The notes beneath the pieces are model-generated. The model was given only the letters and a program-made list of their open reading frames with translations, did no database searches and was not told the origin of the DNA. This document shows, one piece after another, positions 1-60,900 of a stretch of 64,000 nt of DNA (position 1 is its first letter; the number at the start of each line of letters is the position of its first letter). The stretch comes from Naegleria gruberi (taxonomy: Eukaryota). The translations under genes were made by a program, and so were the position numbers. The DNA is taken from NCBI GenBank assembly GCA_000004985.1, contig GG738853.1, one strand, 5' to 3'.

Positions 1-404
1 TAACCCAAACCCAAACCCAAACCCAAACCCAAACCCAAACCCAAACCCAAACCCAAACCCAAACCCAAACCCAAACCCAAACCCAAACCCAAACCCAAAC
101 CCAAACCCAAACCCAAACCCAAACCCAAACCCAAACCCAAACCCAAACCCAAACCCAAACCCAAACCCAAACCCAAACCCAACCCAAACCCAAACCCAAA
201 CCCAAACCCAAACCCAAACCCAAACCCAAACCCAAACCCAAACCCAAACCCAAACCCAAACCCAAACCCAAACCCAAACCAAAACCCAAACCCAAACCCA
301 AACCCAAACCCAAACCCAAACCCAAACCCAAACCCAAACCCAAACCCAAACCCAAACCCAAACCCAAACCCAAACCAAACCCCCAAACCCCAAACCACCT
401 AACC
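1..404. repeat. Terminal telomere tract, (CCCAAA)n on the + strand = (TTTGGG)n G-strand. About 65 near-perfect hexamers, degenerating at 370-404 (CCAAAC, CCCCAAA, CCACCTAACC variants).
   Basis: Direct reading of the sequence. The unit AAACCC repeats without interruption from position 1. The C-rich strand reads 5'->3' into the sequence, which is the orientation expected for a left chromosome end. Confidence 0.9.
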
Positions 405-486
405 TTTTTATTTATATTTGAATGACATATATGAAATTCAGATACTCAATATTGGCCGTTCGTTAGTCGTCGATGGGTTTTCGTCT

Positions 487-509
487 AACCCAAACCCAAA
501 CCCAACCCA
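487..509. repeat. Interstitial telomere-like block (AACCCAAACCCAAACCCAACCCA) at a subtelomeric unit boundary.
   Basis: It is preceded by a conserved junction motif TATTGGCCGTTCGTT...GGTTTTCG. The same motif recurs at 2216-2255. Confidence 0.8.
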
Positions 510-36169: not shown

Positions 36170-39094
36170 ATGTTGAACAAGCTATCTATTTTTCAATATT
36201 TACTATTGTCAATTGTGTTTTTCACAACTAGTTACATGTGTCTTTCAACACATGCCAGTTCAGTTGCACCTTTCGTTGGTGTTTCCTCATTTGCTGGCAG
36301 TTTCTCTATTGGTGATGGTTTACCAGCTGCTGAAACTAAAGTTGAAAATGTTTATGCCTTGACAATCAATTCCAAAACTGGTGATCTTTACTTGACTGAT
36401 AACAATAGAGTTCGTAAAGTTTCGTCCACTAACAATATCATGTCCACATTCGCTGGAACAAACAACCAAGTTAATCCTGAAGATGGTCAACCAGCTGTTA
36501 ATACACCACTTGCAGAACCAAGAGGATTAGAAATTAGCTCAAATGGTGAGGTTTACATTGCAGATTATTCCACATGCAAGATTAAAAAAGTTTCCTCTCA
36601 AGGAATTATGACAACCATTGCAGGAACAGGTCCAGGACAAAACAATGATAGAAGATTAGTTTCAGTTTATACTGGAGATGGAGCTTTTGCTAATGAAACT
36701 CAATTGTCATTCCCTCAAGCAATTGCTTTCCATCCAATTACTGGTGAATTACACATAGCCGAAACTCAAAGTTACAAAATTAGAAAGATTACTTTAGAGG
36801 GTAGAATTGCAACAGTTGTTGGAAGTGGACAAAAAGGTCAAGAATCACCAGATGGTGTTTTGGCTGTCAATGCAATTATTGGAGCTCCAGGAAATATCAT
36901 CTTTGATTCGATTGGAAATATGTATCTATCCGATAGATCATTTCACAAAGTTAGAAAGGTCCTTACCAATGGTACCATTGTTACAATTGCTGGAAATGGT
37001 ATGAGTGCCTATAATGGTGATGGTATCTTGGCTGTTTCTGCTTCACTTTTCAGACCAAGTGGATTGGCCCTTAGCTCCACAGGTGAGCTCTATATTGCCG
37101 AAAGTTATGGTCATAGAATTCGTAAAGTCTTGACAAATGGTACAATTATTACTATTGCTGGAACTGGAGTTGCTGGTTATGAAGGAGATGGAGGTTTAGC
37201 TGTAAATGCTCTCTTGGATGCACCAGAATCAATCTTTTTGAGTTCTGATAATTATCTCTTGATTTCTGATTTTGGAAATAAGAGAATTCGTAAAATTTCT
37301 CTATTGGATGGAACTATTTCAACTATTGCAGGAGATGGTTTGGGAGATGGAAAAGCTGCCTCAGTTTATGGTATTTTGAGATATCCAATTGATGTTAAAA
37401 AGGGACCAAATGGAATTCTGATTGCAGATTCTGGTAATGCGAGAGTGAGAAGTGTTTCTAATGGTGGAATTATTTCAACCATTGCAGGTTCAGGTACAAA
37501 TGGTAACCCACAACTTAGAGCCCTCAGAGAGCTTGCTACAAAGGCAAAGTTCGGTACTACTTATGCAATTACAACAAGATCAGATAATGGTGATGTCTAT
37601 GTGATAGATGATACCAATAACAAAATTTTCAAAATTTCTAACCAAGATGGTTCAATTACAGCAATTATTGGTGATGGCAATTATGGATTTACAGAGGATG
37701 GAAGTATTGCAGAGGGTTCATCAGTTGGAGGTTTAAGTGGTGTTGCACTCAATTCATTGGGTGAGGTCATCTTTACAGAGTCCAATAGAATTCGTAAAAT
37801 TTTGACAAATGGTACACTTGTTACCATTTCAGGATATGGAAATCTTCAAGATTCAGGTCAAGGATTTAGTGGAGATGGAGATTTGGCTCAATATGCTTCC
37901 CTTTCTTCTCCAGGTCGTTTATTCATCCACTCAGATGACATTTACTTTGCCGATCAAGACAATTACAGATTCCGTAAGATCTTTGCTAATGGTACAATCA
38001 CAACTATTGCAGGAACAGGATATGGAGATTATGGAGCTGATGATATTTTGGCCACAGAAACATATCTTGCAAGACCAACAGATATTGCCATGAATTCGAA
38101 AGGAGAATTAATCATTTCTGACGCTAAAAGAATTAGAAAAATTGACTTGAATGGAATAATTGTTACTCTGGCTGGAAGTAACGTTGCTGGTTTTTCAGGA
38201 GATGGTGGTCCAGCTGCTGATGCAACCTTTGGAACTTTGGGAGGAATCTATCTTGATTCGAATGATGATATTTATGTTAGTGATCCTGATAATCATAGAA
38301 TTAGAAAGATTTCCCTCATGTGCCCAACCGATTATGCATTGAATGGTAGTGAGTGTATTCCAGTATGTTTTGGAGTTGTTAGCAATGATCCATCAGTTTG
38401 TTCTGGTAAGGGTTCATGTACTCAAAACAATACTTGTCAATGCTCACCTTCCTATTATGGAGCCAATTGTGATTCCTTCAATTGTTCTGGAATTTCCTCC
38501 AATTCAACACTTGTTTGTTCTTCCCATGGTGTTTGCTCTTCTCCAGATACTTGCAATTGTGAAAATGGATATTATGGAAAGAATTGTGAATCATTTAATT
38601 GTTTTGGTGTCAATTCTCAAAATTCCACTAACGTTTGCTCAGCACAAGGAAATTGCACATCTCCAGATAAGTGTAATTGTAAGACTGGATATTTGGGAAG
38701 TAATTGTGAAATGTTCAATTGTTTTGGTGTCAATTCTCAAAATTCCTCCAATGTTTGTTCATCACAAGGAAATTGCACATCTCCAGATAAGTGTAATTGT
38801 AAGACTGGATATTTTGGAAGTAATTGCGAATCATTTAATTGTAAGGGTATTAAGAATAGTGATTCGAGTGTTTGTTCATCTAGAGGTCAATGTATTTCAC
38901 CAGATAATTGTAAATGTACTACAGTTAATAGTTATGGAGTGAATTGTGAATTCATTGTCGAAGGAAAGATTTCAAATATCACAGCTACAAAATCCAATGC
39001 TAGATTGAATGATGGTTCTTCAATTAAGACTCCTTATATGTTGTTGGTTACAACTTTGTCAATTATCATCATGTCAATTTTCTTGATTCTTTAA
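36170..39094 (+). CDS. A 974-aa surface protein. It has a signal peptide, about 13 NHL repeats (probably two beta-propellers; recurring ...IRK(V/I)...NGTIxTIAG.G), five tenascin-type EGF modules (C.G.G.C...C.C..GY.G.NC..FNC) and a C-terminal hydrophobic tail (GPI anchor or TM).
   Basis: Single ORF. The repeats were read from the translation. ORFs 38343..38942 and 37809..38093 are overlapping-frame artefacts. Confidence 0.75.
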   Translation: MLNKLSIFQYLLLSIVFFTTSYMCLSTHASSVAPFVGVSSFAGSFSIGDGLPAAETKVENVYALTINSKTGDLYLTDNNRVRKVSSTNNIMSTFAGTNNQVNPEDGQPAVNTPLAEPRGLEISSNGEVYIADYSTCKIKKVSSQGIMTTIAGTGPGQNNDRRLVSVYTGDGAFANETQLSFPQAIAFHPITGELHIAETQSYKIRKITLEGRIATVVGSGQKGQESPDGVLAVNAIIGAPGNIIFDSIGNMYLSDRSFHKVRKVLTNGTIVTIAGNGMSAYNGDGILAVSASLFRPSGLALSSTGELYIAESYGHRIRKVLTNGTIITIAGTGVAGYEGDGGLAVNALLDAPESIFLSSDNYLLISDFGNKRIRKISLLDGTISTIAGDGLGDGKAASVYGILRYPIDVKKGPNGILIADSGNARVRSVSNGGIISTIAGSGTNGNPQLRALRELATKAKFGTTYAITTRSDNGDVYVIDDTNNKIFKISNQDGSITAIIGDGNYGFTEDGSIAEGSSVGGLSGVALNSLGEVIFTESNRIRKILTNGTLVTISGYGNLQDSGQGFSGDGDLAQYASLSSPGRLFIHSDDIYFADQDNYRFRKIFANGTITTIAGTGYGDYGADDILATETYLARPTDIAMNSKGELIISDAKRIRKIDLNGIIVTLAGSNVAGFSGDGGPAADATFGTLGGIYLDSNDDIYVSDPDNHRIRKISLMCPTDYALNGSECIPVCFGVVSNDPSVCSGKGSCTQNNTCQCSPSYYGANCDSFNCSGISSNSTLVCSSHGVCSSPDTCNCENGYYGKNCESFNCFGVNSQNSTNVCSAQGNCTSPDKCNCKTGYLGSNCEMFNCFGVNSQNSSNVCSSQGNCTSPDKCNCKTGYFGSNCESFNCKGIKNSDSSVCSSRGQCISPDNCKCTTVNSYGVNCEFIVEGKISNITATKSNARLNDGSSIKTPYMLLVTTLSIIIMSIFLIL

Positions 39095-42513: not shown

Positions 42514-45500
42514 ATGACCACTCATTCCTTGGGAAGTAATGGAAGCTATGCTGTTGAGGTTGATGATCACACACCGAATATATCGGCCTCAATAGGGTTG
42601 GCCGGTATGCCAAGAGGATCAGCCTCAGTACTTTCAGCAGATAATCAAACTTCACTCACAGCTGGAGCAGCAGCTTCACTGTTAAACGACGGCGCCTCTA
42701 TGTGGAATTCATTCGAGGAGAGTGCCACTAACTTTATGTTAAATATTTACGAGAAGACAAAAATTCACCAAACAAATTGGTATAACTTTACCTATAACCT
42801 AGTATTGTACATTTATCTCCTTTGGACAATGATGTTTCTTCCCGGATTGGCAGACGAAGAATATAATTGGGGAGAATATTCGCATTGGATCTTTAAGGCA
42901 GCAAATTATCCAGTTTCTCTATCCCTAAACTTGGTTTCGTATGAAGTCATTATTGTGATATTTTGCTGTTTTGTCCTTCTAATATGTGTCTACTTTATTC
43001 TGTTTTTTGTTGGCTATAGGGCAAGCTTACTAGCAAACAAGCACTGGAAAAAGATCAAGCTTGCCATAAGAATCATTCATGGATTTCTCACACTTACTTC
43101 CTTAATTTATACCTATGTGTTTGGTGCCTTTATAGATTGCAATTATGGAACCTCTGTAAATTTAGATGGTTATGATAGACCTGTTGAAGTATTGAGGAGG
43201 CACCCAACCATTGCCTGCAGTGGTGCAGTTAATTCAACTCTCATTTCTGTCGGTTCTATATTCTTCATGTTACTACTTGTTATTCAGTTGATCTCTGTTT
43301 TAACAATGTCGGAGGATAATCCGAGTGGCAAGAATGCCTTTGCAACAGACAAGGTCTACTACTTGTTTCCATTCATTGCAACACAATGCATTTACATTAT
43401 ACTAGTTTGTGCAATACCTCCAACCTATAACTATGTCAAGCCGGTTATTTACCTTGCCTTATGTATTCTACATGTGCCCTACCATTTGTGGTTGTTACCT
43501 TATTTTAAAAGAGTGGAGAATACTCTCTTCTTTGGCTTTGTTGGTGCCAGATTGGGAGGAGCTGTTGGTTTTCTGGTCTCTAGCTTGGTCTCTACTGATG
43601 ATTCAAATTGGACTCTTGGTTTGGGCATGATGGGTCTCACGATTGGCCTTATGCTTGTATGCTTTGTAGTTTTTGTTGTTGCAGCAGAGATTTATATTGG
43701 TATTCTATACAGTTCTATCAGAAGAGGTGTTATTCAAACTATTAAGGTTTCGGTTGATTTTAGTCAAGCCCAAACAGTCAGATCCTCCATCGAAAGAGAA
43801 GCATCTGGTCTCTATCAAAAATTTGAAAAGGATGGTAAACTGAGAGCCTTCAACCTCTTCTTGAAATTCTCAATGAGATCAGGTAGAAAGGCTTTTGGAG
43901 ATTTTCAACTTTCTGATGTTGAAATTGCTCTTGCTTTGATTAAGGGTGTTTCATCTCAAAAGTGTGCCAATAATGTTGATATTCTGATTACCTCAGCGTT
44001 GGTTGTAGCTTACTTTTTACCAAACTTCACCAGTGTCATACTGGCAGGTGGTATTGTCAGAAAGGTTGCCAAGCTCAAGTCCAATCCATTGAAAAAGTAC
44101 ATTATTACCCAAAGAACAAAGGAAATTGAATTCCTCAGTGGAGAAGACTTGTCTGGTAAGAACATTATGGAAATTAAGAATATTATTGGAAGACTGGAAA
44201 AGAAGCAAGAATTGGTTCTCCTTCTTCACAAATCATTCTGGAAGGAAATGATCAATGAATCTTTAGAAATTACCAAGATTGAAACAATCAACAGAAAGAT
44301 TGCTGAATTGGTGCACTCTTGTCAAAGCTCTTATGATATTCTCATATCCAATTACAACAATGAAAAGTCAGTGATTAGATCATATGCCAGATTTGTTGAA
44401 GACTACAAGTTTGATCCAGAAAAAGCTCAAGAAATGTACCACGAAGCAAACATTATTGAAGAGGAAGAAGCTGTCAATAGAAGACATCAATTATCAAAAA
44501 CCTTAAAGAACAAGTATACATCCAATCGTGTAGTGCCACTTCCAAATCAATTCTCTGTAGCCTCTAATATTAGGGGAGGTGGTGGTGGTTTTGAAAGTGA
44601 AGATGAAGATAAGGGATACTTTGAAAAGATCGACATGAACAAGCAAGGCCACTCTTCTGACTCTAGATTAGATGACATGGACTTTGAAAATGAAAAGTTT
44701 GAAGGTGTAGAGGAAAACGCAGCCACAGCACAACAAAAGAAGGAATTTCTCTTTAGAACTGCACTTTCATCTTCCATGTATAATAAGCCTCAATTTATTA
44801 CCTTTGTTGTTTTTGCTTCAGTTTCATTGATCATACTAACAATTGGTCTTATCCTTGGATTGGTGTTCTCTACTGGTGTAACATCTGATATTGCTCTTTC
44901 AAATGATGTGTGTATTCCTGCTTCTGTTCCTCTCTCAGTTCTTATGTACATTAGAAAAAAGCAATTGCACGATAATATTAAGGAATACTCAATGTCATGG
45001 AATACAGAAAACACAGCCAGAGTAGATAAGCAATGTAACAAGCTCTCAAATCTGTATTCTATTGGTATGAATACTTTCTCTGAATCAGTCCGATCTGACT
45101 ATACTAGAGGCACCAGATTACTCAAACAACCTGTGTTGATTTATTCCTCAACAAATACTTCAGAATACACTGGTTACTCTACATCCAGAAATTCGACTAT
45201 TGCAGAAATTACAAAAGCATTGGTAAAAATGTGTAGTGCCTATGATAACTACTCAGAGGAAAGATATAAGCAAACAGTATCTGATTACAATTTTATGTTC
45301 CTTTATCAAAACAGAATAAGTTTTTCCTCATCTTATGAAAGCTTTTGCTCTGAATATCTGGACAGAAATGGAGAAAAATCCTCAACATACAGAACTATCT
45401 TTTTAATCTATTACATTTCCACAACAGCTTTATATATTCTTAGTGCCTTCTCAGTGATTGCATTCACTAGATACCACCTTACCTCACTGAATGATTCTAT

Positions 45501-47844
45501 CAAGTTGATAGGAAGTTCAATTTCAAAAGATAAGGTTGGTAAAATCTATCACAAGTTGGAAGGTAAAGTTGAGGAAGATCTACAAATAGGTTCAGATGGA
45601 TTCTTTTCCATGTTTGTTAAACCAAATAACTCTATTTCTATAATGGTTATTTTTATGATTTGTATTACAGCCATTTGCGTCACCTTGTTCTTTATTGAAA
45701 CGATCATTAATTCAAACAATTCCTCCATGGCCATTCAAAATATTCAATTCAGTGTAAATATTATGATGACTGCCCACAGAGTTGGTCTCAGATTGGGAGA
45801 ACTTTTCATTTTCAAATCTAAATTCCCTTCGACTCCTATGAATGATAGGCATTTAACTACAGATGATGAATTAGCACAATTCCACAAAGACAATAAGAAC
45901 CTAGCAAGCTTGATGCAGAGCTCGTGGTACTCTTTACTTTTTGGTACATCAGATAATGATAACGATAAGTTATTTGGAAAATATCCAGATATTGATCAAC
46001 TTATTCAAGGAACCTGCAAGAGTACATCAAACACAACATCCAATAGTACAACGTGTGTTGGTTTGGATGATTTGGTTTCATATTTGACAAGTTCTTCAGC
46101 CCTCTTTAATGAGGATGTCTTCTATGCCAGTTCTACCTTTAACCAATCAGATTTATTCACACGTATGGAATCCATCTATTCTGATGTAGATTTACTTGCC
46201 CAAAAGCTCGAAAGTTTGATTCAAATTTATTCCAAGTACAATTCTGTTCCTTCAATCACTATCACAATTGTTTTTGGAATATTGGGATATGCTTCATTGG
46301 TAACCGCTATTTGGTTCACTTCAAGATCTATGACATCTTTCTGGAGAGAATATCAACAATTAAGAATGATGTTGAGCTACTTTACACCTGAAGTATTGGA
46401 AGAGAATGAACAACTCAAGAACTTTGTTCTCTTCAAGTCATTGCCAGGTAGATTATCTGAACTATTCAAGAGTAAGAAATCATCAGGTGACACCTCCAAC
46501 AATGAAGACTCACATGTTAAAAGTATTCTTGAAGCTGCTGTAGATGGAGCTGTATTGTGTAATTCTCAATGTGAAGTTACCATTTTCAATCCTTCTGCTG
46601 AAAGATCATTTGGTTTCAAGAAGAGTGATATTATGGGTTTACCTATATACACACTCTTTGATGAATCAAGCCACACCAAGATGAGAAAGATCATATCTGG
46701 TATGTTAGCAAAGAGTGGTAATGATGGTGAGTCTATTGAGGTTGAATGTGTTCGTAAGAATCAAACAAAATTCCCAGCCAAGATTAATATCTTTTCAAGT
46801 AAGATTGGTTCTGACACTGTAATTGTCTCCTTTATTAAGGATATTACTCCTGAAAAGAAGCAAAATATGCTGTTGGAAGAAGAAAAGAAGAAATCAGATT
46901 CACTCTTGTTGAACATTTTACCAGAAGCTGTAGGTGTTCGTCTTAAGAGTGGTGAAACTTTTATTGCCGAAAAGTTCAATGATGTCACTTGTTTCTTCAG
47001 TGATATGGTTGGTTTTACAAGTATTTCATCCAATATGAGTCCAACTGATCTAGTTAAAATGTTAAATACTATTGTCAATGGATTCGACTCACTTACAGAC
47101 ACTTTCCATTTGGAAAAGATTAAGACAATTGGTGATGCCTATTTTTGTGTAGGTGGTATTCACGGTTCTGCAACTTCGGATCACCCTGAAAGAGTTCTTC
47201 GTTTTGCCATGGCCACATTCGCTGTAGTTCATGACTACAACCTTGAAAATTTGGCCAATAAGGAAAATTCAAATCCAAGTCTCCTTAATATACGCATAGG
47301 AATTAATACTGGTAGTGTTGTCGGTGGTGTTATTGGTACAAAGAAGTTTGCCTATGATATGTGGGGTGATACTATCAATGTTGCAAGTAGAATGGAATCC
47401 ACATCCTTGCCAGGAAGAATTCAAGTTTCCAGATCTACCTATGAAAGAGTATATGATATGGGTTATGAATTTGAGGAACGTAGAATTGAAGTTAAGGGTA
47501 AAGGAAGCACTCAAACCTACATGCTCAACAATATGTATCACAAGAATCCATTGGATGCAAATGGTTTCTCTAATGTTAATAATGTTGTTGTTACTGCTTC
47601 TGCTGCTGTTTCATTACCACCACAACCTTCCCAAGGCAATAACAGTACAAACAATCTTAACAATAATAGCATGGCCTACAATAACCAAACAAGTAATAAT
47701 GGAAGTGGAGATCATTTGGAAGAATCAGATGATGATGACGATTTGAGAAGATCATCCAATAATGTAGTTGTTCTTGGCCGCAATAGGAATCCACCAAGTC
47801 ATACAAGCCACACAAGTAGTGTAGATGATATCTTGATGGAATAA
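42514..47844 (+). CDS. A 1,776-aa polytopic membrane protein. It has about 9 TM segments in the N-terminal block and about 4 more in the middle, followed by a PAS domain (~aa 1330-1440) and a single class-III nucleotidyl cyclase catalytic domain. All catalytic residues are present and the specificity residues (Lys/Asp) are adenylyl-cyclase-type.
   Basis: The cyclase motifs are FSDMVGFTSIS, KIKTIGDAYFCVGG, IRIGINTGSVVGGVIG and YDMWGDTINVASRMES. The PAS-like block reads ILEAAVDGAVLCNSQCEVTIFNPSAERSFGF...IVSFIKDIT. This is an uninterrupted ORF. ORFs 43409, 44017 etc. are antisense or overlap artefacts. Confidence 0.8.
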   Translation: MTTHSLGSNGSYAVEVDDHTPNISASIGLAGMPRGSASVLSADNQTSLTAGAAASLLNDGASMWNSFEESATNFMLNIYEKTKIHQTNWYNFTYNLVLYIYLLWTMMFLPGLADEEYNWGEYSHWIFKAANYPVSLSLNLVSYEVIIVIFCCFVLLICVYFILFFVGYRASLLANKHWKKIKLAIRIIHGFLTLTSLIYTYVFGAFIDCNYGTSVNLDGYDRPVEVLRRHPTIACSGAVNSTLISVGSIFFMLLLVIQLISVLTMSEDNPSGKNAFATDKVYYLFPFIATQCIYIILVCAIPPTYNYVKPVIYLALCILHVPYHLWLLPYFKRVENTLFFGFVGARLGGAVGFLVSSLVSTDDSNWTLGLGMMGLTIGLMLVCFVVFVVAAEIYIGILYSSIRRGVIQTIKVSVDFSQAQTVRSSIEREASGLYQKFEKDGKLRAFNLFLKFSMRSGRKAFGDFQLSDVEIALALIKGVSSQKCANNVDILITSALVVAYFLPNFTSVILAGGIVRKVAKLKSNPLKKYIITQRTKEIEFLSGEDLSGKNIMEIKNIIGRLEKKQELVLLLHKSFWKEMINESLEITKIETINRKIAELVHSCQSSYDILISNYNNEKSVIRSYARFVEDYKFDPEKAQEMYHEANIIEEEEAVNRRHQLSKTLKNKYTSNRVVPLPNQFSVASNIRGGGGGFESEDEDKGYFEKIDMNKQGHSSDSRLDDMDFENEKFEGVEENAATAQQKKEFLFRTALSSSMYNKPQFITFVVFASVSLIILTIGLILGLVFSTGVTSDIALSNDVCIPASVPLSVLMYIRKKQLHDNIKEYSMSWNTENTARVDKQCNKLSNLYSIGMNTFSESVRSDYTRGTRLLKQPVLIYSSTNTSEYTGYSTSRNSTIAEITKALVKMCSAYDNYSEERYKQTVSDYNFMFLYQNRISFSSSYESFCSEYLDRNGEKSSTYRTIFLIYYISTTALYILSAFSVIAFTRYHLTSLNDSIKLIGSSISKDKVGKIYHKLEGKVEEDLQIGSDGFFSMFVKPNNSISIMVIFMICITAICVTLFFIETIINSNNSSMAIQNIQFSVNIMMTAHRVGLRLGELFIFKSKFPSTPMNDRHLTTDDELAQFHKDNKNLASLMQSSWYSLLFGTSDNDNDKLFGKYPDIDQLIQGTCKSTSNTTSNSTTCVGLDDLVSYLTSSSALFNEDVFYASSTFNQSDLFTRMESIYSDVDLLAQKLESLIQIYSKYNSVPSITITIVFGILGYASLVTAIWFTSRSMTSFWREYQQLRMMLSYFTPEVLEENEQLKNFVLFKSLPGRLSELFKSKKSSGDTSNNEDSHVKSILEAAVDGAVLCNSQCEVTIFNPSAERSFGFKKSDIMGLPIYTLFDESSHTKMRKIISGMLAKSGNDGESIEVECVRKNQTKFPAKINIFSSKIGSDTVIVSFIKDITPEKKQNMLLEEEKKKSDSLLLNILPEAVGVRLKSGETFIAEKFNDVTCFFSDMVGFTSISSNMSPTDLVKMLNTIVNGFDSLTDTFHLEKIKTIGDAYFCVGGIHGSATSDHPERVLRFAMATFAVVHDYNLENLANKENSNPSLLNIRIGINTGSVVGGVIGTKKFAYDMWGDTINVASRMESTSLPGRIQVSRSTYERVYDMGYEFEERRIEVKGKGSTQTYMLNNMYHKNPLDANGFSNVNNVVVTASAAVSLPPQPSQGNNSTNNLNNNSMAYNNQTSNNGSGDHLEESDDDDDLRRSSNNVVVLGRNRNPPSHTSHTSSVDDILME

Positions 47845-51920: not shown

Positions 51921-54900
51921 TTAAAATTGAGCTCCCCAACCAATATAAGTTCTACCTAAAATCTTAACATCGGTTGCCATGTCGATTAAGCATTCAACTT
52001 GTTCCTTGATGGATGAACAAGTTTCTCCAACCTTGGCTCTCTTGTTGGTTTTTGGATCACCTTCAATGGCTCTGTCCACATATTTCAATCCCTTTTTCAA
52101 GTGTAAATTGGCTTGAGCATCACTCTTGAAAATAACTTTAGGATTAGCCAATTCAAGTTTCATCTTGGCAAGTTCGACTTTTCTTTGAGGATACCACTTC
52201 ATTAAGGACTGATCACCATCTTGAGAAGCCTCAGAAGATGATGAGCTAGAGGCAGAATTTGGTAAATTCTCAGCAGACATTTGATAGAATTGTGGATTCT
52301 TCTTGGCATTCTTCAACCAATCTACTAATGGTTCCTTGATAAATACATCCATAGTATTCAATAAAATATGTCGATTATTATGTAAAGCTCTCATGCAATG
52401 TACCATACTTTCAAATAGTAAACCAGTACCAACATTTTCGTTGGCAAAGTCGTCCAAAGTAGTAGAAATTGGTGAAAAGATAGCCAACATTTGACGAGTC
52501 AATCTGAAAGGCATTAATTCAGGAACAGGTAAAATTTCAGTAGCACTACCAAAAGCATGACCAAAATCGATACCAATCAAGGATCCTTCTGAGAAATCAA
52601 CAAGGAAGTTTTCCAAGTGACGATCTCCAATACCCAAAACATAGGAACTAATCGAGAAGGTAGCAAGGGATTTAGCAAATCTATTTCTAATGGTAAAGTA
52701 TGCTTCGTTGGACATTGCCAATGATCTCAAGCCATTTCTCAACAAGTCTGGATCAATAAGTTTGTACTGTTCATCCATTGTTTGTTCCAACATGTCTTGG
52801 TCTGCATTTGAGTAAGTGACCAAATACTTTTGATAGAGAGTGTATTCAGCACCTTTAGATCCTGATACCTTCTCCAACATTTTAAGATGGATAGATGCAG
52901 ATGGATGTTTCAATACTTCTTGGTCATGAGTTCCAGTTTGCTTATTCAATTGTTCTTCAATAATTGCTTTGAGTGGCATGGTATTGTCAACCCATTCAAT
53001 AATACCAACTTCAGAACTCATTGGAACAACCTTGTACATTCTAATGTTCAAATCTCTTTGTTTACAGTTGGTATCTTTGTCGAGAATATTGTTCATGACA
53101 TGGAACAATTGTTGAATTCTTTGATCTTGACGTAAATCTTCACCACCCTTAACAAGGAAAGCATAGTCCTTCTCATCTGAACCGTGAATCTTCAACCTCT
53201 TTGGCTTTCTCATAGAAGACATGGTTAACAAGTTTGGATCAAAGCTGATAATTCTCACATGCTCATCAATACTTGGAGCTTGCATATTGTTTTGCTTACT
53301 TGACATTCCAACACTGCCCAACATGAGTGCAGCTGCTGCCTTGCCAACGTTATTAATATACTGACCAGGAACTTCAATATAAAAGTTTCCTCCATTCTCA
53401 ACAACATCACTAGAGGATGAGATGGTTTCATTACTACCTCTTGTGGAAGATTGATGGAAGTCAAACATCCACTTGGAGAAGTATTCCAACTTGGTCTTAC
53501 CAGGTATCATAGCACCCTTGGTTTCCTTCATCTTTTTAAATTTGACAGCATAAAGTTGCTCGAATGTCTTGTCTGTCATTTCCATCACTTTGGCACCATC
53601 TCTACCACCAAAATCTTTCTTAATTTGTGGAACCCAGTTCTTGGCAAATCTGGTATTGTAGACACCAACATTTGGTGCATTTGGATCGAACAAGTCATCG
53701 AATGCCTCTTCCCACTTGGATTTGATATCCCTCTTTCTTTCCTTTTCCGATTTGTAATTCTTTGATTTCATAATTTCTTTAATATCATCCATGTAAGCTT
53801 TGAATCTAAGTTCAGGATGGTTAAGTTTCTTCAGTGAGAAGATAAATGTTTCAATGAGAGGATTTCTAACCTTTTGTTTCATTAATTTGATACCTTCAAG
53901 AACTTTACGTGTTATACCTGTATTACCTCTTTCAAAGGAACCAATAATATCTTCAGAGCTGATATTGAGTGGATAGTAGAGAGATTGTGGATAATTCTCG
54001 GCAAGAGACAAGAGGATTGGAATTAAACATTCACCTTCTGGTCCAGTCAAATGGGCCAACATTTGTGAGATCCATGTAATAAACATCCAACTTGGAATTT
54101 GTAAAGAGGTTGATGTTGGAGCAAATTTGGCAAAGATCTTTCTGGTGGATGGGAATTTTTCAATCAATTCCAACAATCTAGGGAATCTATCTCTAGCTTC
54201 CTTATTGTAATACTTCATACTGTTCAACATATTTTCAACAATATGCTCAGCAAGAATATCATTGGATGGTAATTTTGAAGACCCTTCTCTGGTAATAACT
54301 AAATCTTCATCATCAGTATATTTTTGACCAAGACGTTCTTTCAAAATTTCATCACAAAAGATGGCAAACTTGAGATAAATCTTGGCAGATTGATATGGAG
54401 AAATAGTATTGTTTCCGTCTTCAATTTTGATAACGACATTGCTATCGTCATTAGTATTCTTATTAACTATTTCTACAGATTCCTTGTATCTATTGAGGGC
54501 TGTTTGCAAGTAATCTTCAGGATTGCCTCCAAGTTTGGTATTTTCTCTCAAAGTATTAGCAAATGAAGAATTGGCATCAGCATCCAAAAGCTTGTAAGTG
54601 AGTACATAACTTGTTGGTACTGTTTGACTGGCATCATTGACTTCCTTTCCATACTTAGTGGCGTTTTGTTTGATAAACTTGATGAGCTTGTCGAAAACAT
54701 CTTTGGTCTCACTGCTTGAACCTCTGCCAGATGTGAGAGCCTTGATCTTTAACAATTTAACAAGGGATTTGAAAAATTCAAAGTCGAATGAAAGAGCATC
54801 AGATGAATCGGCACTATTAGTTACTTCCAAGAGCTTTTTGCTTGCAGCTTGAGCAACTTTGAGATAGCTTTGAGCAACAGTATTGTTCTTTTGCTTTCTA

Positions 54901-57900
54901 GCTGCTTTGGTGACTGTCAAGAACATGACGGCCTTCTCTCTTGTAACTGTCTTTGACAAGGTATCCAAATCTAATGTGCCACTAGCAATATTTGAAAGAC
55001 CACCAGCAAGTGCTTGATAATCCTCTTGTTCTGAAAGACTGAGAGTAAGACTTGGTGACTCTCCAATCAAACTACTAGTGAGTGGACGAAGCTTTGGCCT
55101 AGAAGAAGGTAATAATACACTCGAAGAGGTATCCTTTTCAGTAAAGTTCTCCAAGTTTTGTGAAATCAAATCATACATAAAGTTTCTGTTGGAAATTACA
55201 TTGTCCCAAGTATTCATATCATCAATGTAGGAACTTGGATATCTTGATCTCCAATCCTTCAACATTCTAATAAGATTCTTTGATTTAGCATCTGATTGGT
55301 TTTGCCATAATTGAATAAATTCTTCCATTTCTACAAGAGGTTGAAGTCTTTGGAGATGAAGATGTCTTCCAGTCTTGGCAAGTGGTGATAAAGTACTCCA
55401 AGACATTAAGAATTCGGCATAACTATCTACAACATAGGACTTGGCCTTTTCATATTGATGTGTGAATAAGGACAAGTTTGCCAATTTGTTGCTATACTTG
55501 GTTTCTAAAATTTCTCTCTTTACATTTGATGACATGGATTCTTCAATAAATGTCTTGAGAGATGACCATTTGTCCTTTTGTTTGAGATTACTATCCAAAT
55601 ACAAGGAAAGTAAATTTTCGTTCAATTCTGATGCCTCCCAAATCTTTTGATTGAGAAGTTGTTCAGATTCAGACTTGGTTCTCTTTTGCACTTCGGAAAG
55701 AACTTCTTGCAAGACCAAGTCCCAAGAATTCATCTTCTTGAGACATTCCAATTTTTGTGTTCTCCAAAATTCAACTTCCTCTTCAATTGGAGGTGTGTCG
55801 TGAGTTTGCCAACCAGAATCCCATTGATCTACACCTTGACTGTATATCTTCAAAGCACTATTATATCTGCCATCGAGTTCATCTGAAAGTGCCTTTTTGG
55901 TATTTTCTTGTTGGGCTACATGGTATTCGAAAATGGAACGAATAACATCTTGTTCATCAATGGCCTTGTACAATTTACCAAGTTCTATCCAAGCATCTAT
56001 GTAAGGTCTCATATCATCTTGTCCAGCAATGTTCTCATCTTCCATGGCTGTAGTCTCAATAAGATTATTTTCAATGAGATGTTCCAACAATAAAATACCC
56101 AATTCAACATTGTGGCTCTGCATACTGACCGAGCGAATAAGTTTAGGAGTGAGAATATTGTTCTTAGGTTGTTGAAGATCTTCAGTATCCAAAATAACAG
56201 AAAGCAATGCAGAAACCAGAAGGGAACTATCTGGTGATTTCTTCAACATTTGTTGCAAGTTTGTGTGAATGCTATGCTTGAGTGGTTCTGATTGTTTTTC
56301 TGAGAGTTTTTCCATGTTAGGATAGAGTGAAGTAAATACTGACACAAACAAGTGTCTAGCCAATGATACATCATAAATACACAATGCTTGCAGAGGTGTA
56401 ATAATTTCCTTCAAAGAAATTTGAATGTCAGGCAATTCTCCTGTTCTGTACTTTCTGTACATGGTAATTCTATTCTTCTTGGCAATCTTTTGACGTGTTT
56501 CCCAAGCTTCTTTTTCCTTCTTGATACGTACAGCTCTTCTTGCTTGATATTGTGTCATGGTTGTTTCTTTCAGTTTCAAGAATCTTCTTCTGAGATATGG
56601 TGTTTGGAAATCGTCAGATGAAGAACCTTCTCCACCACTTGTAGATGAGGTACCTTGTTGTTCATTTCCACTACTAGTACTATTACTATTATTAGAAACT
56701 GTCTTGAAAGGAGTGAATAATAAAGAAGTTTGACTCAAACTTGGTGCAGACAAAATATCTTTCAATGTCTCAGAGTACATTGTTGGTGTGAATTGAGGAG
56801 TCTGAGTAGCTTTTACCATACCAAAGGCAGGAAGTTGTGGATTAGACCACCAGATTGAGATAAGCTCATAGTATTGTAAGGATCTTCAAGAGCTAAAGAT
56901 TCATATGGAAGTGAAGCATAGCTTTGCAATGAACTTGAACCTTTTCTGCCTCCTTGAGAGCTGAGAACAATCGAGGTGGCTGTGAGAGGTAAACTCTTGT
57001 GTTGCCAACTTGTATCAATCTTGTATTCCTTGAAAACACAATTAGACAAACTTTCAGAGAAAATGGCATTGGCATCAGAAAAGTCTGGAGAACGGTGCAA
57101 TAATTGTAGCAACAAGTAAGAACTGAATTGAAGCCACTTGTCTCCAAGATTATTAGAGTAAAGCAAGGAGAATGTTTGTTCCAAACGTTTCAAACTTTCA
57201 TTGGAAAGTCTAGATTCATGATCCCAAAAGTGGAGCATCTTCTTTCTAATATCCTCTGAAATGTCATTCATAGCCTTGATAAGCTCAGTTCTAATGACTT
57301 CTTCTCCTCTGAACTCTGTAGGTTTGTTATCGAAAAGCCAAATCAAAATATCATAGTACTTTTCACGACATGGTTCGGAGAAGGTACTAAACATTTGAAC
57401 ATCACTAGTATTGATGTATTGAGTCATAATTTCCATAAAGTGCATTATATCAGATTTGTTAATGGTCTTTAACAATTGATAAATGATTTGAAGAGTAAGC
57501 AATTGAGTTGGTTCGTCCTTGTGTTGAAGGTTTTGTCTCAAGAATGGTTTCAAAGAAGTGTACAAATCTGGAACAAATTCTGCTCTCCATGTAATAAGTT
57601 GGAGAGCAATCTTCTTATAAACACCATACAAGTTTGGTAAAATGTCCAATATCTTGGAAGGCAAGAAGTGATCAATGAATGCAGTATCATGGATACCAAT
57701 CTTGTAGAGACAATTCAAGAATCTGTCATATTGCATTTTTTGTAAGAATGAAGAACAAGTTGCAAGCAATAATCTTTCGAATGTGACAACACTTTCGTTG
57801 GTATTGGCAAGTTTTGAAAGACTCTTGAGAATCATACCACAAATTTCAGAAGCAGCCTCATAGACATCCTTGTTTTTGAATGATATATTTTCCAAAATCT

Positions 57901-60900
57901 TTTCATAGAACTTTTCCTCTGTGATAATGGTTGAGTCTGTTGTTGCATCAAAAACAGGAATATCATTAGCCAACAAGATACCCAAAAGTTGAAGACCAGT
58001 CGTTCTGGCAAGCTTGGCTGTAGACTTGTTTTCATCGTGACAAATCCAACCAAGAATGATTGACTTGTTAATAGTTAAACTATCCTTCCACTTTTCAACA
58101 ATAAGTTTGACAAGTTCCAAGTTGGATCTGAGTACTACCTTCTTTTGATGAGCACAATTCTTAAACATGAAAGCAAGTAGTCTAGAAACTAGTTCCTTTC
58201 CTTGAGTGGATTTACTTGGTGAAACATCCTTCCACTTTAAGAGTAAAATTATTAAATCTCTAATGAAATAGGTGATACCCTTAGAGGAAAGATCTTCATT
58301 CTTCTTTTGGTCATCCTCTTCCTTCATAATAAATTTAATAATTGGCTCGAAGAAATACTTGGAAAATGGTTCAAATATAGTTGGTCTATTTGTGATAATC
58401 TTGCAGAGGAAGAGCTTGATATTTCTGTGAGTTTCGTCATTATTTAACTTTTTGTGCATTTCAGCCATCCAGGAAGGCATTGCAGAGTTTGCTGCTGCCT
58501 TATCAGAACCAACAGGATATTTGAATATGGAAACCATATGGTCAACAGTTCTCAAAATTGAAGCCATACATGGATTAGTGTTCACTTCATCCATTTCTAG
58601 AGTAGAACTGTTATCAACATTTGGTGTCTTTTCACTTTCCTTAGATTCATCTTCAGATGATTTGGTTACTTCCTCAGAATATTTGGAACCAGGAATGAAA
58701 AAGCTTCCTGCAAATGGCATGCTTGAGGAGAGTGAACTATCCGATAAATATTGTGAAGAGAGATAGCCAATTCTCAATTCACCAGCTTTTCTTTTACCAT
58801 TATCAGAAGTTGGCTGATTAGAGTCAATTCTAAGTTCATCAACAGCTTTTCTATGGAAGGCAAAGTTCGTTTCAATTTCAAACTTATATTCACGATTGGT
58901 ATCGATAATATTTTCCCACAAATCTTCTTCTTTTTCTTTGAAAAGGAAACCAGTGTAGAACTTTTCTTGTGTTTGGGTACATTTTACACCACCAGCCAAT
59001 ACATTAAAGGCACTTGTTCTAAAGTCCAACAATAATTCATAACCCAAAACCTTGTACTCTTGGTCAGATGGTTTCCAGGAACGAGCAGCAAAGCTTGATC
59101 TCATAACCTTTTCTGTGAGTTCCTTGCCAGTTAATTGACCACTACCGGATGATTGCTTTTCACAATACTTGTTGTTAATATATTCCTTTACAGCAGAAGC
59201 AGGCAATAAACGATACATTGCTTCCAATAAATTATAACAACATGTTCTAGTTACAAATAGAGCACGAACAGAATCAGCTTCCAATTCTTCAATATTTGGA
59301 TTAGATATAGTTTCGCTGAGAGCAGTTGGTTTAGCAATAGACTTCATTAATTTCTGAATATTGTCTTCAAAGAATTGTACAAGACCTCTTTCAGGCATAT
59401 GAGTCAAACAAGTGAGACATACCCACTGTATGATTTGTCTTCTAATATCTATTGGCAAACTTTCCTTATAGAATGTTTCTAAACAAATATTGGCAGACTT
59501 TAACCGCTTTTCATCAGTGAATTTTCCAAACAACACCTTTAAGGCATTGGTCATCTTTTCTTGGAGTGGATGGTTCTTCCATCTGAAAAGAGGTAATACC
59601 TGTTCTAAAAAGTCAACACTATCAGAAGATTGAACAGCATAGAGCAAGTCTTCAAGCAAGGAAATGTGATCATCATATTCACTAGTCTCTGGCTCTATTT
59701 CTTCATAATTGAGTGGGAACTCATTAATAACAATAGACTTGACTTGTCTAAGGATCGAATTAAGTTCCTCAGGTAATTTTCCTTGTGTTTCAGGTTGAGC
59801 AGCTGAATGTTTAAATAAAATAGGTAAAATTCTAATAGCTCTCAACTTTAAGTCAAAGAGACCAAAGGTAGCTTCATCGTTATCATTTCTTGATGTAGCA
59901 TCATCTCTCTTGATTCTCAAACAAGCAAGTAAGAAGTCAATGATAGCATTTTGATAGACACCATGTTGGAGGATGCATGAAGACTCAATGTTGAACAATC
60001 TTTCAATTAGGGACATAGTTTTAAGTTTAAAGTCATCATCAATATTTCCTCCACATTTTTCCAATACTGGTTGTGAGCAATCCAATATTTGAATAACAAA
60101 CATTGTCTTTTTCTCCTTTTTAGATAGGGATAACCTCATAAACTTTAAGCTTACACTCAACAAGACGTCAAATAAAAAGTGATGGTTAAACTCGTTTTCT
60201 TGGTCACGTTTGTTGGAATTAGAAATGCTTGCTATTCTGCCTATAATCAACCTGGCAAATTGGTCCATATGTTCAGAAATATAGTTATCAATTTCTGACT
60301 GGAATGTTTTGTAGAAAAGGGCGCCTTTTGTACTTGGTTTTACTCTGTGAATTGCATTTCTTGATCTGTCTCCTTCATCACCTGCTACTTGATAAGAATT
60401 ATCAATTTGTGATAACTTCTTTGAAAGTACACTCTCACCTGATGAGGTAGGATCAGATGTAGTAACATAGTTCAAAATACTTTCGGCCCAATCCAAAATC
60501 AAAGCATAATTGCAACAACTCCTTTGATATAATGACATTGACTGGTCCCATAAGAGAATCGAAATTTTCAGTGAATAACTTATTTGAAATAACATTAGCA
60601 AATACTTTTCTAGAAGAATAATTTGGAAGGAATGAAGAGTCATCAATAAATTCCAATCTACTTAATAACCTAATACCTCTAAATAAGAAAGTATAGTCAT
60701 CCATGTTCATCCTGGAAGACTTCTTGAAATCCAATCCAGTAATATACCTCTGGACATACAATCCAAGAATTTCATTCAAAATTTTCCTAGTTCTGGTCAT
60801 AACAGTTTGTCCAATAGACTTGGATTGTTTGGCATAATTTGTAATACCTTCGAAAATCTTTCTAGTATATCTTGGAAGTATTGTTTGTACATCTTCATTG

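What the first reader, a model, noticed from the sequence alone, without database searches (positions are those of the whole stretch)
42514..47844. Polytopic PAS-domain adenylyl cyclase with a single catalytic domain and an unusual ~13-TM scaffold.
The C-terminal cyclase domain retains both metal-binding Asp (FSDMVGFT, IGDAY), the transition-state Asn/Arg (TINVASRME) and AC-type specificity residues (Lys in KIKTIGD, Asp in YDMWG). It is therefore predicted to be an active homodimeric adenylyl cyclase. It is preceded by a PAS sensor and by two blocks of TM helices separated by a ~350-aa cytosolic region. This does not look like canonical 12-TM two-domain eukaryotic tmACs, nor ACG/ACR-type enzymes. 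It resembles bacterial PAS-cyclases grafted onto a eukaryotic multi-TM N-terminus.
Basis: partly seen in the sequence, partly recalled or inferred. Interest (0 to 1): 0.6.

Follow-up and report, generated by a model that had tools for sequence, protein, structure and literature searches.

The report
TmcB-scaffold receptor-type adenylyl cyclase (Naegleria)
This Naegleria gruberi gene encodes a predicted active adenylyl cyclase whose PAS-plus-catalytic cassette is attached to a 12-helix "TmcB-type" membrane scaffold with two large outside-facing helical domains; it is one of dozens of such uncharacterised putative receptor cyclases in heterolobosean amoebae.

Summary
Window 42514-47844 (+) is one uninterrupted 1776-aa ORF, identical to N. 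gruberi XP_002680403.1 ("predicted protein"). It has a single class III cyclase domain (aa 1485-1672, Pfam E 7e-54) carrying the full homodimer-type catalytic set with adenine-specifying Lys/Asp. A PAS domain and a cyclase-transducer helix precede it.

The membrane part is 12 TM, not ~13. An 8-TM block and a 4-TM block are separated by a 344-aa cytosolic helical region. That region contains Pfam TPR_TmcB, named after a Dictyostelium cAMP-pathway regulator.

The architecture is not a one-off. At least 35 cluster representatives from Naegleria (three species), Willaertia and Acrasis share it end to end. TmcB-like proteins found outside Heterolobosea lack a cyclase.

The catalytic domain is closest to filamentous cyanobacterial cyclases (53-58% identity) and far from mammalian AC9 (32-38%).

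Best reading: a ligand-regulated homodimeric receptor adenylyl cyclase. It is a new variant of a known kind, with function untested.

The parts
42514..47844 (+). Complete single-exon CDS, 1776 aa plus stop; N. gruberi NAEGRDRAFT_64095
   Evidence: ORF list; exact-sequence match to XP_002680403.1
42514..42777 (+). aa 1-88: low-complexity Ser/Asn/Ala-rich N-terminal tail, inferred cytosolic
   Evidence: Translation; topology parity argument
42778..43752 (+). aa 89-413: 8-TM block (TM1-8). It has a beta-hairpin outside loop (aa 209-227) closed by the conserved pair C209/C235, and the invariant cytosolic motif LP(329)YFKRVEN(336)
43753..44508 (+). aa 414-665: cytosolic all-helical domain; TPR_TmcB (PF25474) at aa 551-653 (nt 44164-44472)
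   Evidence: Pfam E 7.9e-18, 65 bits against a cutoff of 27; AF2 helices; most conserved part of the scaffold, 33% mean pairwise identity
44515..44718 (+). aa 668-735: disordered acidic/Gly-rich linker
   Evidence: pLDDT below 50 in the AF2 model
44785..45480 (+). aa 758-989: TM9, outside domain A (helical bundle with a beta-hairpin, 4 Cys, 3 N-x-S/T sequons), TM10
   Evidence: Hydropathy; AF2 secondary structure; sequon and Cys counts; most variable region, 19% identity
45622..46347 (+). aa 1037-1278: TM11, outside domain B (about four helices, 2 Cys, 5 sequons), TM12
46348..46512 (+). aa 1279-1333: juxtamembrane linker carrying the family-conserved LRxMLNY motif
   Evidence: Family consensus
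46513..46848 (+). aa 1334-1445: PAS domain, cofactor or ligand unknown
   Evidence: Pfam PAS_9 and PAS; nearest PDB sequences are the FixL/DosP heme-PAS domains at E about 1e-7, but the heme-ligand positions are not conserved
46849..46965 (+). aa 1446-1484: cyclase-transducer / signalling helix (EKKqn.Ll.eEKkkSe.LL.NILPe.VA.rLK)
   Evidence: Conserved across the family; aligns with the helix preceding AC9 C2 and with the equivalent helix of cyanobacterial cyclases; weak hits to the C-terminal end of HNOBA in paralogues
46966..47529 (+). aa 1485-1672: class III nucleotidyl cyclase catalytic domain with D1497, D1541, K1537, D1615, N1622, R1626 and K1661
   Evidence: Pfam E 7.3e-54; PDB alignments; residue mapping and conservation in 24-26 of 26 family domains
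47530..47841 (+). aa 1673-1776: low-complexity Asn/Ser/Asp-rich C-terminal tail
   Evidence: Translation

Best explanation
The gene encodes a receptor-type, homodimeric class III adenylyl cyclase. It belongs to a heterolobosean family in which a PAS / transducer-helix / cyclase output cassette is fused to the C-terminus of a TmcB-type polytopic membrane scaffold.

Proposed topology: N-terminus inside; 8 TM; a cytosolic TPR_TmcB helical domain; TM9, outside helical domain A, TM10; TM11, outside helical domain B, TM12; then cytosolic PAS, coiled-coil transducer and catalytic domain.

Proposed mechanism: two chains dimerise to form two symmetric ATP sites. Each chain supplies both metal Asp residues, the Lys/Asp adenine pair and the Asn/Arg transition-state pair. 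An unknown extracellular or membrane signal acts on the fast-evolving outside domains or the TM bundle. It is relayed through TM12, the conserved LRxMLNY juxtamembrane segment, the PAS domain and the transducer helix, and changes the geometry of the catalytic dimer and so the rate of cAMP synthesis.

Shown here: the ORF, the domains, the catalytic residues, the family and its distribution, the 8+4 TM layout, and the absence of any known membrane-fold match. Inferred: enzymatic activity, dimerisation, membrane orientation, ligand regulation and signal path.
For: The ORF is identical to the public protein. Pfam finds cyclase, PAS and TPR_TmcB. The catalytic residues D1497, D1541, K1537, D1615, N1622, R1626 and K1661 are present, aligned to AC9 C1/C2, and conserved in 24-26 of 26 family members. 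The transducer helix is conserved.

The end-to-end architecture recurs in at least 35 cluster representatives, named as Naegleria gruberi, N. fowleri, N. lovaniensis, Willaertia magna and Acrasis kona. A syntenic N. lovaniensis orthologue lies next to DNA-PKcs.

The divergence pattern is receptor-like. Catalytic domains are 64-81% identical to this protein's, whereas the outside domains average 19% and the TM blocks 16-23% pairwise identity.
Confidence: 0.6

Rival explanations
1. The PAS domain is the true sensor. It binds an intracellular small molecule or cofactor (redox, O2, metabolite) and gates the cyclase. The 12-TM TmcB scaffold serves only for membrane anchoring, localisation or protein scaffolding through its TPR-like domain.
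For: PAS sits immediately upstream of the transducer helix, as in soluble cyanobacterial PAS-cyclases that align over 83-93% of the cassette. The nearest PDB sequences are the heme-PAS oxygen sensors FixL and DosP. TPR-type domains usually mediate protein-protein contacts.
Against: The FixL proximal His and distal Arg positions hold Met and Ile here, and His1387 is not conserved in the family. No LOV-type Cys motif is visible (read by eye from the consensus). A mere anchor would not need about 1200 residues with two large, well-folded, rapidly diversifying outside domains.
Confidence: 0.25
2. The membrane part is a transporter or channel and the cyclase reports or couples to flux. This would resemble the ciliate and apicomplexan K+-channel-AC and P-type-ATPase-GC fusions (comparison from my own knowledge).
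For: The large polytopic domain (12 TM) is of transporter-like size. Polytopic module-cyclase fusions are known in protists.
Confidence: 0.08
3. The catalytic domain is a guanylyl cyclase, or a catalytically dead regulatory module.
For: Activity and specificity have not been measured. Pfam PF00211 does not distinguish AC from GC.
Against: The specificity positions hold Lys1537 and Asp1615 (ATP-type) rather than Glu and Cys (GTP-type). Both metal Asp residues and Asn/Arg/Lys are present and conserved across the family.
Confidence: 0.05
4. The long ORF is an assembly or annotation artefact that joins a TmcB-like gene to a separate PAS-cyclase gene.
For: Short PAS-cyclase-only entries exist in N. 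gruberi (P0184, 390 aa; P0185, 606 aa).
Against: The reading frame of 5331 nt is uninterrupted. The same end-to-end order occurs in at least 35 clusters from five species in three genera (Naegleria, Willaertia, Acrasis) and independent assemblies. Several of the roughly 900-aa entries whose names were looked up proved to be fragments of roughly 1700-aa proteins. P0184 groups tightly with the full-length P0169 in the tree.
Confidence: 0.02

Closest known systems
TmcB (tiny macrocysts B) family; Pfam PF25474 TPR_TmcB; Dictyostelium discoideum tmcB
   Same: The TPR_TmcB domain scores well above the Pfam threshold. The 8-TM block with its DC...C outside hairpin and PYYRRxEN motif is homologous to the N-terminal block of non-heterolobosean TmcB-like proteins. 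The overall 8 TM + TPR + 4 TM-with-long-loops layout, and the frequent PAS domains, are shared. Dictyostelium tmcB is cited as a regulator of the cAMP signalling pathway in sexual development (Muramoto et al. 2005, as cited in PMC12750705 and PMC8516963).
   Different: No cyclase domain was detected in the TmcB-like proteins examined from Gefionella, MMETSP and Ceratiomyxa. Homology of the second TM block and outside domains is not detectable by sequence. The D. discoideum protein itself could not be retrieved and compared here.
Class IIIa membrane adenylyl cyclases: mycobacterial Rv1625c/Cya and mammalian AC1-9
   Same: They share the catalytic fold, the residues and the transducer helix. The best PDB sequence hits are AC9, AC8, AC5 and the Rv1625c-type Cya. 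Like Rv1625c, this protein has a homodimer-type single domain. The question of whether AC membrane domains act as receptors is the same one (PMC4821796, PMC11606603, PMC12414865).
   Different: The membrane part has 12 TM per chain in an 8+4 arrangement, with a 344-aa cytosolic insert and two ~170-aa outside domains, rather than a compact 6-TM bundle. There is no C1/C2 pseudo-heterodimer. A PAS domain is inserted. The catalytic domain is only 32-38% identical to AC9.
Filamentous cyanobacterial PAS/GAF-cyclases and response-regulator-cyclases (Microcoleus, Okeania, Tychonema, Oscillatoria)
   Same: These are the nearest relatives outside Heterolobosea found for the output cassette. Identity is 53-58% over the catalytic domain and about 42% over PAS + helix + cyclase, with an identical Lys/Asp set.
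   Different: They are soluble, 350-700 aa, and have no TmcB scaffold. The PAS portion itself is only weakly similar.
Bacterial TM / four-helix-bundle / TM sensors (Tar/Tsr, NarX/NarQ, PilJ/McpN, TorS, NIT)
   Different: There is no sequence or Pfam match. The fold is generic, since designed bundles score the same. Here there are two such loops in tandem, embedded in a 12-TM protein, and domain A carries a beta-hairpin.
Other protist polytopic-module/cyclase fusions (K+-channel-AC of Paramecium/Plasmodium, P-type-ATPase-GC, rhodopsin-GC, Dictyostelium ACG, trypanosome receptor ACs); comparison from my own knowledge
   Same: The principle is the same: a class III cyclase is wired directly to a membrane sensor or transport module, bypassing G proteins.
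   Different: The membrane module here is unrelated to any of them, with no channel, ATPase, rhodopsin or periplasmic-binding-protein-like hits.

Membership tests
Class III nucleotidyl cyclase (PF00211) | Significant match to the catalytic-domain profile over its full length | tested here: met
   E 7.3e-54, 182.6 bits against a cutoff of 21.9, profile positions 3-182 of 183; 67 PDB cyclase sequences matched
Class III nucleotidyl cyclase (PF00211) | Two metal-binding Asp residues plus the transition-state Asn/Arg (and phosphate Lys) in one chain, the homodimer type | tested here: met
   D1497, D1541, N1622, R1626 and K1661
Adenylyl (not guanylyl) cyclase | Lys and Asp at the two base-specifying positions (Glu and Cys in GCs) | tested here: met
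   K1537 and D1615 align with the KIKTIG Lys and YDIWG Asp of AC9 C2. The product itself was not measured.
Adenylyl (not guanylyl) cyclase | Measured cAMP formation | not testable with these tools
   Needs an enzyme assay
Class IIIa/b cyclase with cyclase-transducer element | Conserved roughly 19-aa helix immediately N-terminal to the catalytic domain | tested here: met
   SDSLLLNILPEAVGVRLK aligns with ADWLLRNIIPYHVAEQLK of AC9 and with SLLLNILPEAIADRLK of Microcoleus. It is conserved in the family. Paralogues give weak hits to the C-terminal end of HNOBA.
Canonical eukaryotic tmAC (AC1-9 / Dictyostelium ACA type) | Two 6-TM cassettes, each followed by a catalytic domain (C1, C2) | tested here: not met
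   One catalytic domain only; 8+4 TM arrangement
TmcB family | TPR_TmcB (PF25474) domain above the gathering threshold | tested here: met
   65 bits against a cutoff of 27; also present in six paralogues
TmcB family | Homologous polytopic N-terminal block preceding the TPR domain | tested here: met
   Co-linear alignment with invariant Pro/Asn and conserved Cys pair; hhalign probability 84-97%, E 8e-6 to 4e-10, against Gefionella and MMETSP TmcB-like proteins
TmcB family | Homology of the second TM block and large loops | tested here: inconclusive
   The same 4-TM-with-long-loops hydropathy pattern is present, but hhalign probability is below 3%
TmcB family | Direct similarity to D. discoideum TmcB itself | not tested
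PAS domain | Match to PAS profiles | tested here: met
   PAS_9 E 4.9e-16; PAS E 6.9e-8
Heme-PAS O2 sensors (FixL/DosP type) | Proximal His ligand (BjFixL His200) and distal Arg220 | tested here: not met
   The aligned positions hold Met and Ile. The nearby His1387 is not conserved in 45 family PAS domains.
Bacterial 4HB-type extracytoplasmic sensor domains (4HB_MCP, PilJ, NIT, TarH, CHASE3) | Profile match to one of these families | tested here: not met
   No Pfam hit in the outside domains at E<=10, nor in six paralogues at E<=1
Bacterial 4HB-type extracytoplasmic sensor domains (4HB_MCP, PilJ, NIT, TarH, CHASE3) | Four-helix-bundle fold flanked by two TM helices | tested here: inconclusive
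Known channel / transporter / GPCR folds | Structural or profile match of the 8-TM block | tested here: not met

The most novel reading that the evidence does not exclude
The heterolobosean TmcB-cyclase fusion is a Rosetta-stone clue that the eukaryote-wide TmcB family are orphan polytopic receptors whose native output is control of cAMP synthesis. On this reading, stand-alone TmcB proteins, such as Dictyostelium tmcB (already linked genetically to cAMP signalling), would act by directly binding and regulating an adenylyl cyclase. The 8-TM block would then be a previously unrecognised membrane sensor fold.
Probability: 0.3. Interest if true: 0.75.

Novelty: new variant of a known kind. Interest (0 to 1): 0.55.

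Why it matters
What the membrane domains of adenylyl cyclases do is an acknowledged open question (PMC12414865, PMC4821796, PMC11606603). This family offers a natural experiment. A highly conserved homodimeric AC output (64-81% identity to this protein's catalytic domain) is wired to a large, rapidly diversifying 12-TM scaffold with two folded outside domains. Dozens of paralogues exist per genome, including in the human pathogen N. fowleri. That is the signature of a receptor repertoire signalling straight to cAMP without G proteins.

The fusion also physically links the otherwise mysterious TmcB family to cAMP synthesis, which gives a testable hypothesis for Dictyostelium tmcB. The 8-TM block has no solved structural relative, so it is a candidate new membrane fold.

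Tried and rejected
- **Word-indexed homologue searches.** Searching with the N-terminal 1300 aa and with a 9-sequence profile returned only 3 hits and 1 hit. The exhaustive HMMER search was needed.
- **AFDB fold search.** The library was unavailable, so AlphaFold models of Dictyostelium TmcB could not be compared.
- **Internal duplication of the two TM-loop-TM modules.** hhalign probability was 25%, which is not supported.
- **FixL-type heme or LOV-type PAS.** The ligand residues are absent or not conserved.
- **Homology of TM block 2 to non-heterolobosean TmcB-like proteins.** Not detectable.
- **Pfam, PDB sequence and Foldseek searches of each N-terminal piece.** Nothing beyond TPR_TmcB.
- **Locating the genomes that encode P0141 and P0145.** Not on record.
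- **Literature searches** for PF25474, TPR_TmcB or a TmcB-cyclase description found nothing. The Naegleria genome paper (Cell 2010) is not held.
Full report
**Source and gene model.** The window is from Naegleria gruberi. The ORF at 42514-47844 (+) is 1776 aa. It is identical, residue for residue, to EFC47659.1 / XP_002680403.1 / UniProt D2V5J0 (NAEGRDRAFT_64095, "predicted protein"), on a 695-kb scaffold. The window starts with (CCCAAA)n telomeric repeats, so the gene lies about 42 kb from a chromosome end. Its neighbours are ordinary eukaryotic genes: DNA-PKcs, teneurin-like EGF/NHL proteins, an RGS protein and an M20 peptidase. The N. lovaniensis orthologue P0003 (about 64% identity over the N-terminal 1200-1300 aa) also lies next to DNA-PKcs.

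**Checking the observation.** Pfam finds one Guanylate_cyc domain (aa 1485-1672, E 7.3e-54), PAS_9/PAS (aa 1334-1445) and, in the inter-block cytosolic region, TPR_TmcB (PF25474, aa 551-653, E 7.9e-18).
- The best PDB sequence matches are AC9, AC8 and AC5, and the mycobacterial Rv1625c-type Cya.
They map to D1497 and D1541 (metal), K1537 and D1615 (adenine specificity), N1622 and R1626 (transition state) and K1661 (phosphate).
- In the HMMER alignments these coincide with the corresponding C1 and C2 residues of AC9.
- Because one chain carries both the C1-type and the C2-type residues, the established rule for class III cyclases predicts a homodimer with two active sites, and Lys/Asp predicts ATP as substrate. 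Activity itself is inferred, not measured.
- The helix between PAS and the catalytic domain (…EEKKKSDSLLLNILPEAVGVRLK…) matches the cyclase-transducer element preceding AC9 C2 and cyanobacterial cyclases. It is conserved in the family.

**Topology.** Hydropathy was combined with a confident AlphaFold2 model of aa 80-1279, built from a 46-sequence family alignment (mean pLDDT 83.7, pTM 0.61).
- Together they give eight TM helices in aa 89-413 and a 344-aa cytosolic all-helical region (aa 414-757) that contains TPR_TmcB and a disordered acidic linker.
- After that come four more TM helices: TM9 from about aa 758, TM10 to about 989, TM11 from about 1037, and TM12 at 1249-1278.
- These four bracket two loops of about 170-180 aa.
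- With 8 + 4 helices, the TPR, PAS and cyclase domains all fall on one side, and the two big loops on the other.
- A nearly invariant Cys pair (C209/C235) closes a beta-hairpin in the TM3-TM4 loop. Cys residues and N-x-S/T sequons occur in both large loops. This is compatible with an extracellular location but does not prove it.

**The N-terminal 1300 aa.** An exhaustive HMMER search of aa 81-1280 against 1.84 billion representatives found only 154 proteins at E<=1e-3.
- Mapping the query's six segments onto them shows at least 35 representatives with the complete order: 8TM, TPR_TmcB, loop A, loop B, PAS, cyclase.
- Name look-ups place them in N. gruberi (at least five paralogues among the clusters checked), N. 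fowleri (at least eight), N. lovaniensis, Willaertia magna and Acrasis kona. Several hits of about 900 aa are fragments of proteins of about 1700 aa.
- Six paralogues scanned individually all show TPR_TmcB + PAS + Guanylate_cyc.
- So this is a conserved, expanded heterolobosean family, not a singular chimera or a mis-join.

**TmcB-like proteins outside Heterolobosea.** The hits from elsewhere are TmcB-like proteins without a cyclase: Gefionella (a malawimonad), MMETSP transcriptomes and the amoebozoan Ceratiomyxa. Many carry PAS domains.
- They have the same 8 TM / TPR / 4 TM-with-long-loops hydropathy layout.
- Their N-terminal block aligns co-linearly with the Naegleria family, with invariant P329/N336 in an LPYYRRxEN motif and the conserved Cys pair. 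hhalign probability is 84-97%.
- The second TM block is similar only in topology (hhalign probability below 3%).
- Pfam names the domain after Dictyostelium TmcB. Two papers cite that gene (Muramoto et al. [quoted passage not shown]
- I could not retrieve the Dictyostelium sequence, so direct comparison remains untested.

**Fold comparisons.** No Pfam family other than TPR_TmcB hits any N-terminal piece. PDB sequence and profile searches are empty. Foldseek of the 1200-residue model against the PDB gives nothing at E<=1e-3.
- Designed bundles, talin and vinculin score the same, and the tool does not say which part of the model aligned.
- Taken with the DSSP layout, in which long helices continue out of TM9 and TM11 and back into TM10 and TM12, I read the two loops as helical-bundle ectodomains in the TM-bundle-TM arrangement typical of chemoreceptors and sensor kinases. 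This is a structural analogy, not demonstrated homology.

**Origin of the output cassette.** Searching with aa 1290-1699 returns other heterolobosean PAS-cyclases first. Filamentous cyanobacterial PAS/GAF- and receiver-cyclases follow.
- Against Tychonema the catalytic domain is 53% identical. Against Microcoleus, PAS + helix + cyclase is 42% identical, with most of the identity in the helix and catalytic domain.
- In an NJ tree the TmcB-type catalytic domains form one clade (64-81% identity to this protein). Other heterolobosean cyclases come next (53-64%), then cyanobacteria (53-58%), with AC9 C2 and C1 at 38% and 32%.
However, the sampling is bacteria-heavy and the tree is crude, so gene transfer is only a hypothesis.
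- Cyclase-less TmcB-like proteins also carry PAS domains, in Gefionella at the same C-terminal position. The PAS domain may therefore pre-date the fusion.

**PAS domain.** The nearest solved relatives by sequence are the heme-PAS sensors FixL and DosP (E about 1e-7). The FixL proximal His and distal Arg positions hold Met and Ile, and the nearby His1387 is not conserved among 45 family PAS domains. The cofactor or ligand is unknown.

**Divergence pattern.** Among paralogues, mean pairwise identity within the scaffold is 19% for both ectodomains, 16-23% for the TM blocks and 33% for TPR_TmcB. Paralogue catalytic domains, in contrast, are 64-81% identical to this protein's. A conserved output joined to fast-diverging outside-facing modules is the pattern expected of a receptor repertoire.

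**Mechanism and likelihood.** I put the following at about 0.6.
- The protein is a homodimeric receptor adenylyl cyclase.
- A signal is perceived by the ectodomains and/or the TM bundle.
- It is transmitted through TM12, the conserved LRxMLNY juxtamembrane segment, the PAS domain and the transducer helix to the catalytic dimer.

The main rival (about 0.25) is that PAS is the true, intracellular sensor and the scaffold only anchors or organises complexes through its TPR domain. Transporter or channel coupling (0.08), GC or dead enzyme (0.05) and gene-model artefact (0.02) are poorly supported.

**Novelty.** The catalytic chemistry and the idea of receptor-type class III cyclases are known. Naegleria is known to encode many cyclases: "at least 81" in the pangenome paper, PMC9928731. 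The TPR_TmcB domain has a Pfam entry, and databases already hold the domain string. I found no description of the TmcB-scaffold cyclase architecture, its 8+4 TM/ectodomain organisation or its restriction to Heterolobosea in the searchable literature. I rate it a new variant of a known kind, of moderate interest (0.55). Its value is as a natural system for the open question of what AC membrane domains do, and as a Rosetta-stone link between the TmcB family and cAMP synthesis.

Noticed in passing
window 1-505: Telomeric repeat (CCCAAA)n, which reads TTTGGG on the other strand, runs from base 1 to about 400, with a short second patch at 487-505. The window therefore starts at a chromosome or scaffold end.
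   Followed up: partly
window 973 to about 2200: A run of Ns (assembly gap). It explains the GC of 0.179 and the extreme skew in the first composition bin, and the spurious 426-aa 'ORF' at 960-2240.
   Followed up: partly
window 51921-63236 (-): DNA-PKcs gene, split over three long ORFs (N-terminal, CC1-2, CC3, CC5, FAT, PI3/4-kinase, FATC), presumably separated by short introns or frameshifts. The N. lovaniensis orthologue of the cyclase also sits next to DNA-PKcs, so synteny is conserved.
   Followed up: partly
window 16861-23829 (-): A 2322-aa ORF with teneurin-type EGF domains and a GPS (GPCR proteolysis site) motif near its C-terminus. It may be an adhesion-GPCR-like protein in an excavate.
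   Followed up: no
window 36170-39094 (+): A 974-aa ORF with teneurin-like NHL repeats plus EGF domains.
   Followed up: no
window 11706-13541 (-): A 611-aa ORF with a C-terminal RGS domain. It may be one of the seven-transmembrane RGS proteins described for Naegleria (PMC9283941); its topology was not checked.
   Followed up: no
window 24570-27086 (+): An 838-aa ORF with no Pfam match at E<=1e-3.
   Followed up: no
related proteins P0132, P0139, P0140 (about 2350-2480 aa; MMETSP/unknown origin): Giant TmcB-like proteins in other eukaryotes carry the 8-TM block, TPR_TmcB and then up to four PAS domains before the second TM block. This is a different domain order from the Naegleria family, and no output domain is recognisable.
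   Followed up: partly
tool behaviour: The word-indexed homologue search failed to return the query protein itself or any full-length paralogue when the query was hydrophobic, or when cyclase words dominated the candidate list. Counts from that tool under-represent this family.
   Followed up: yes
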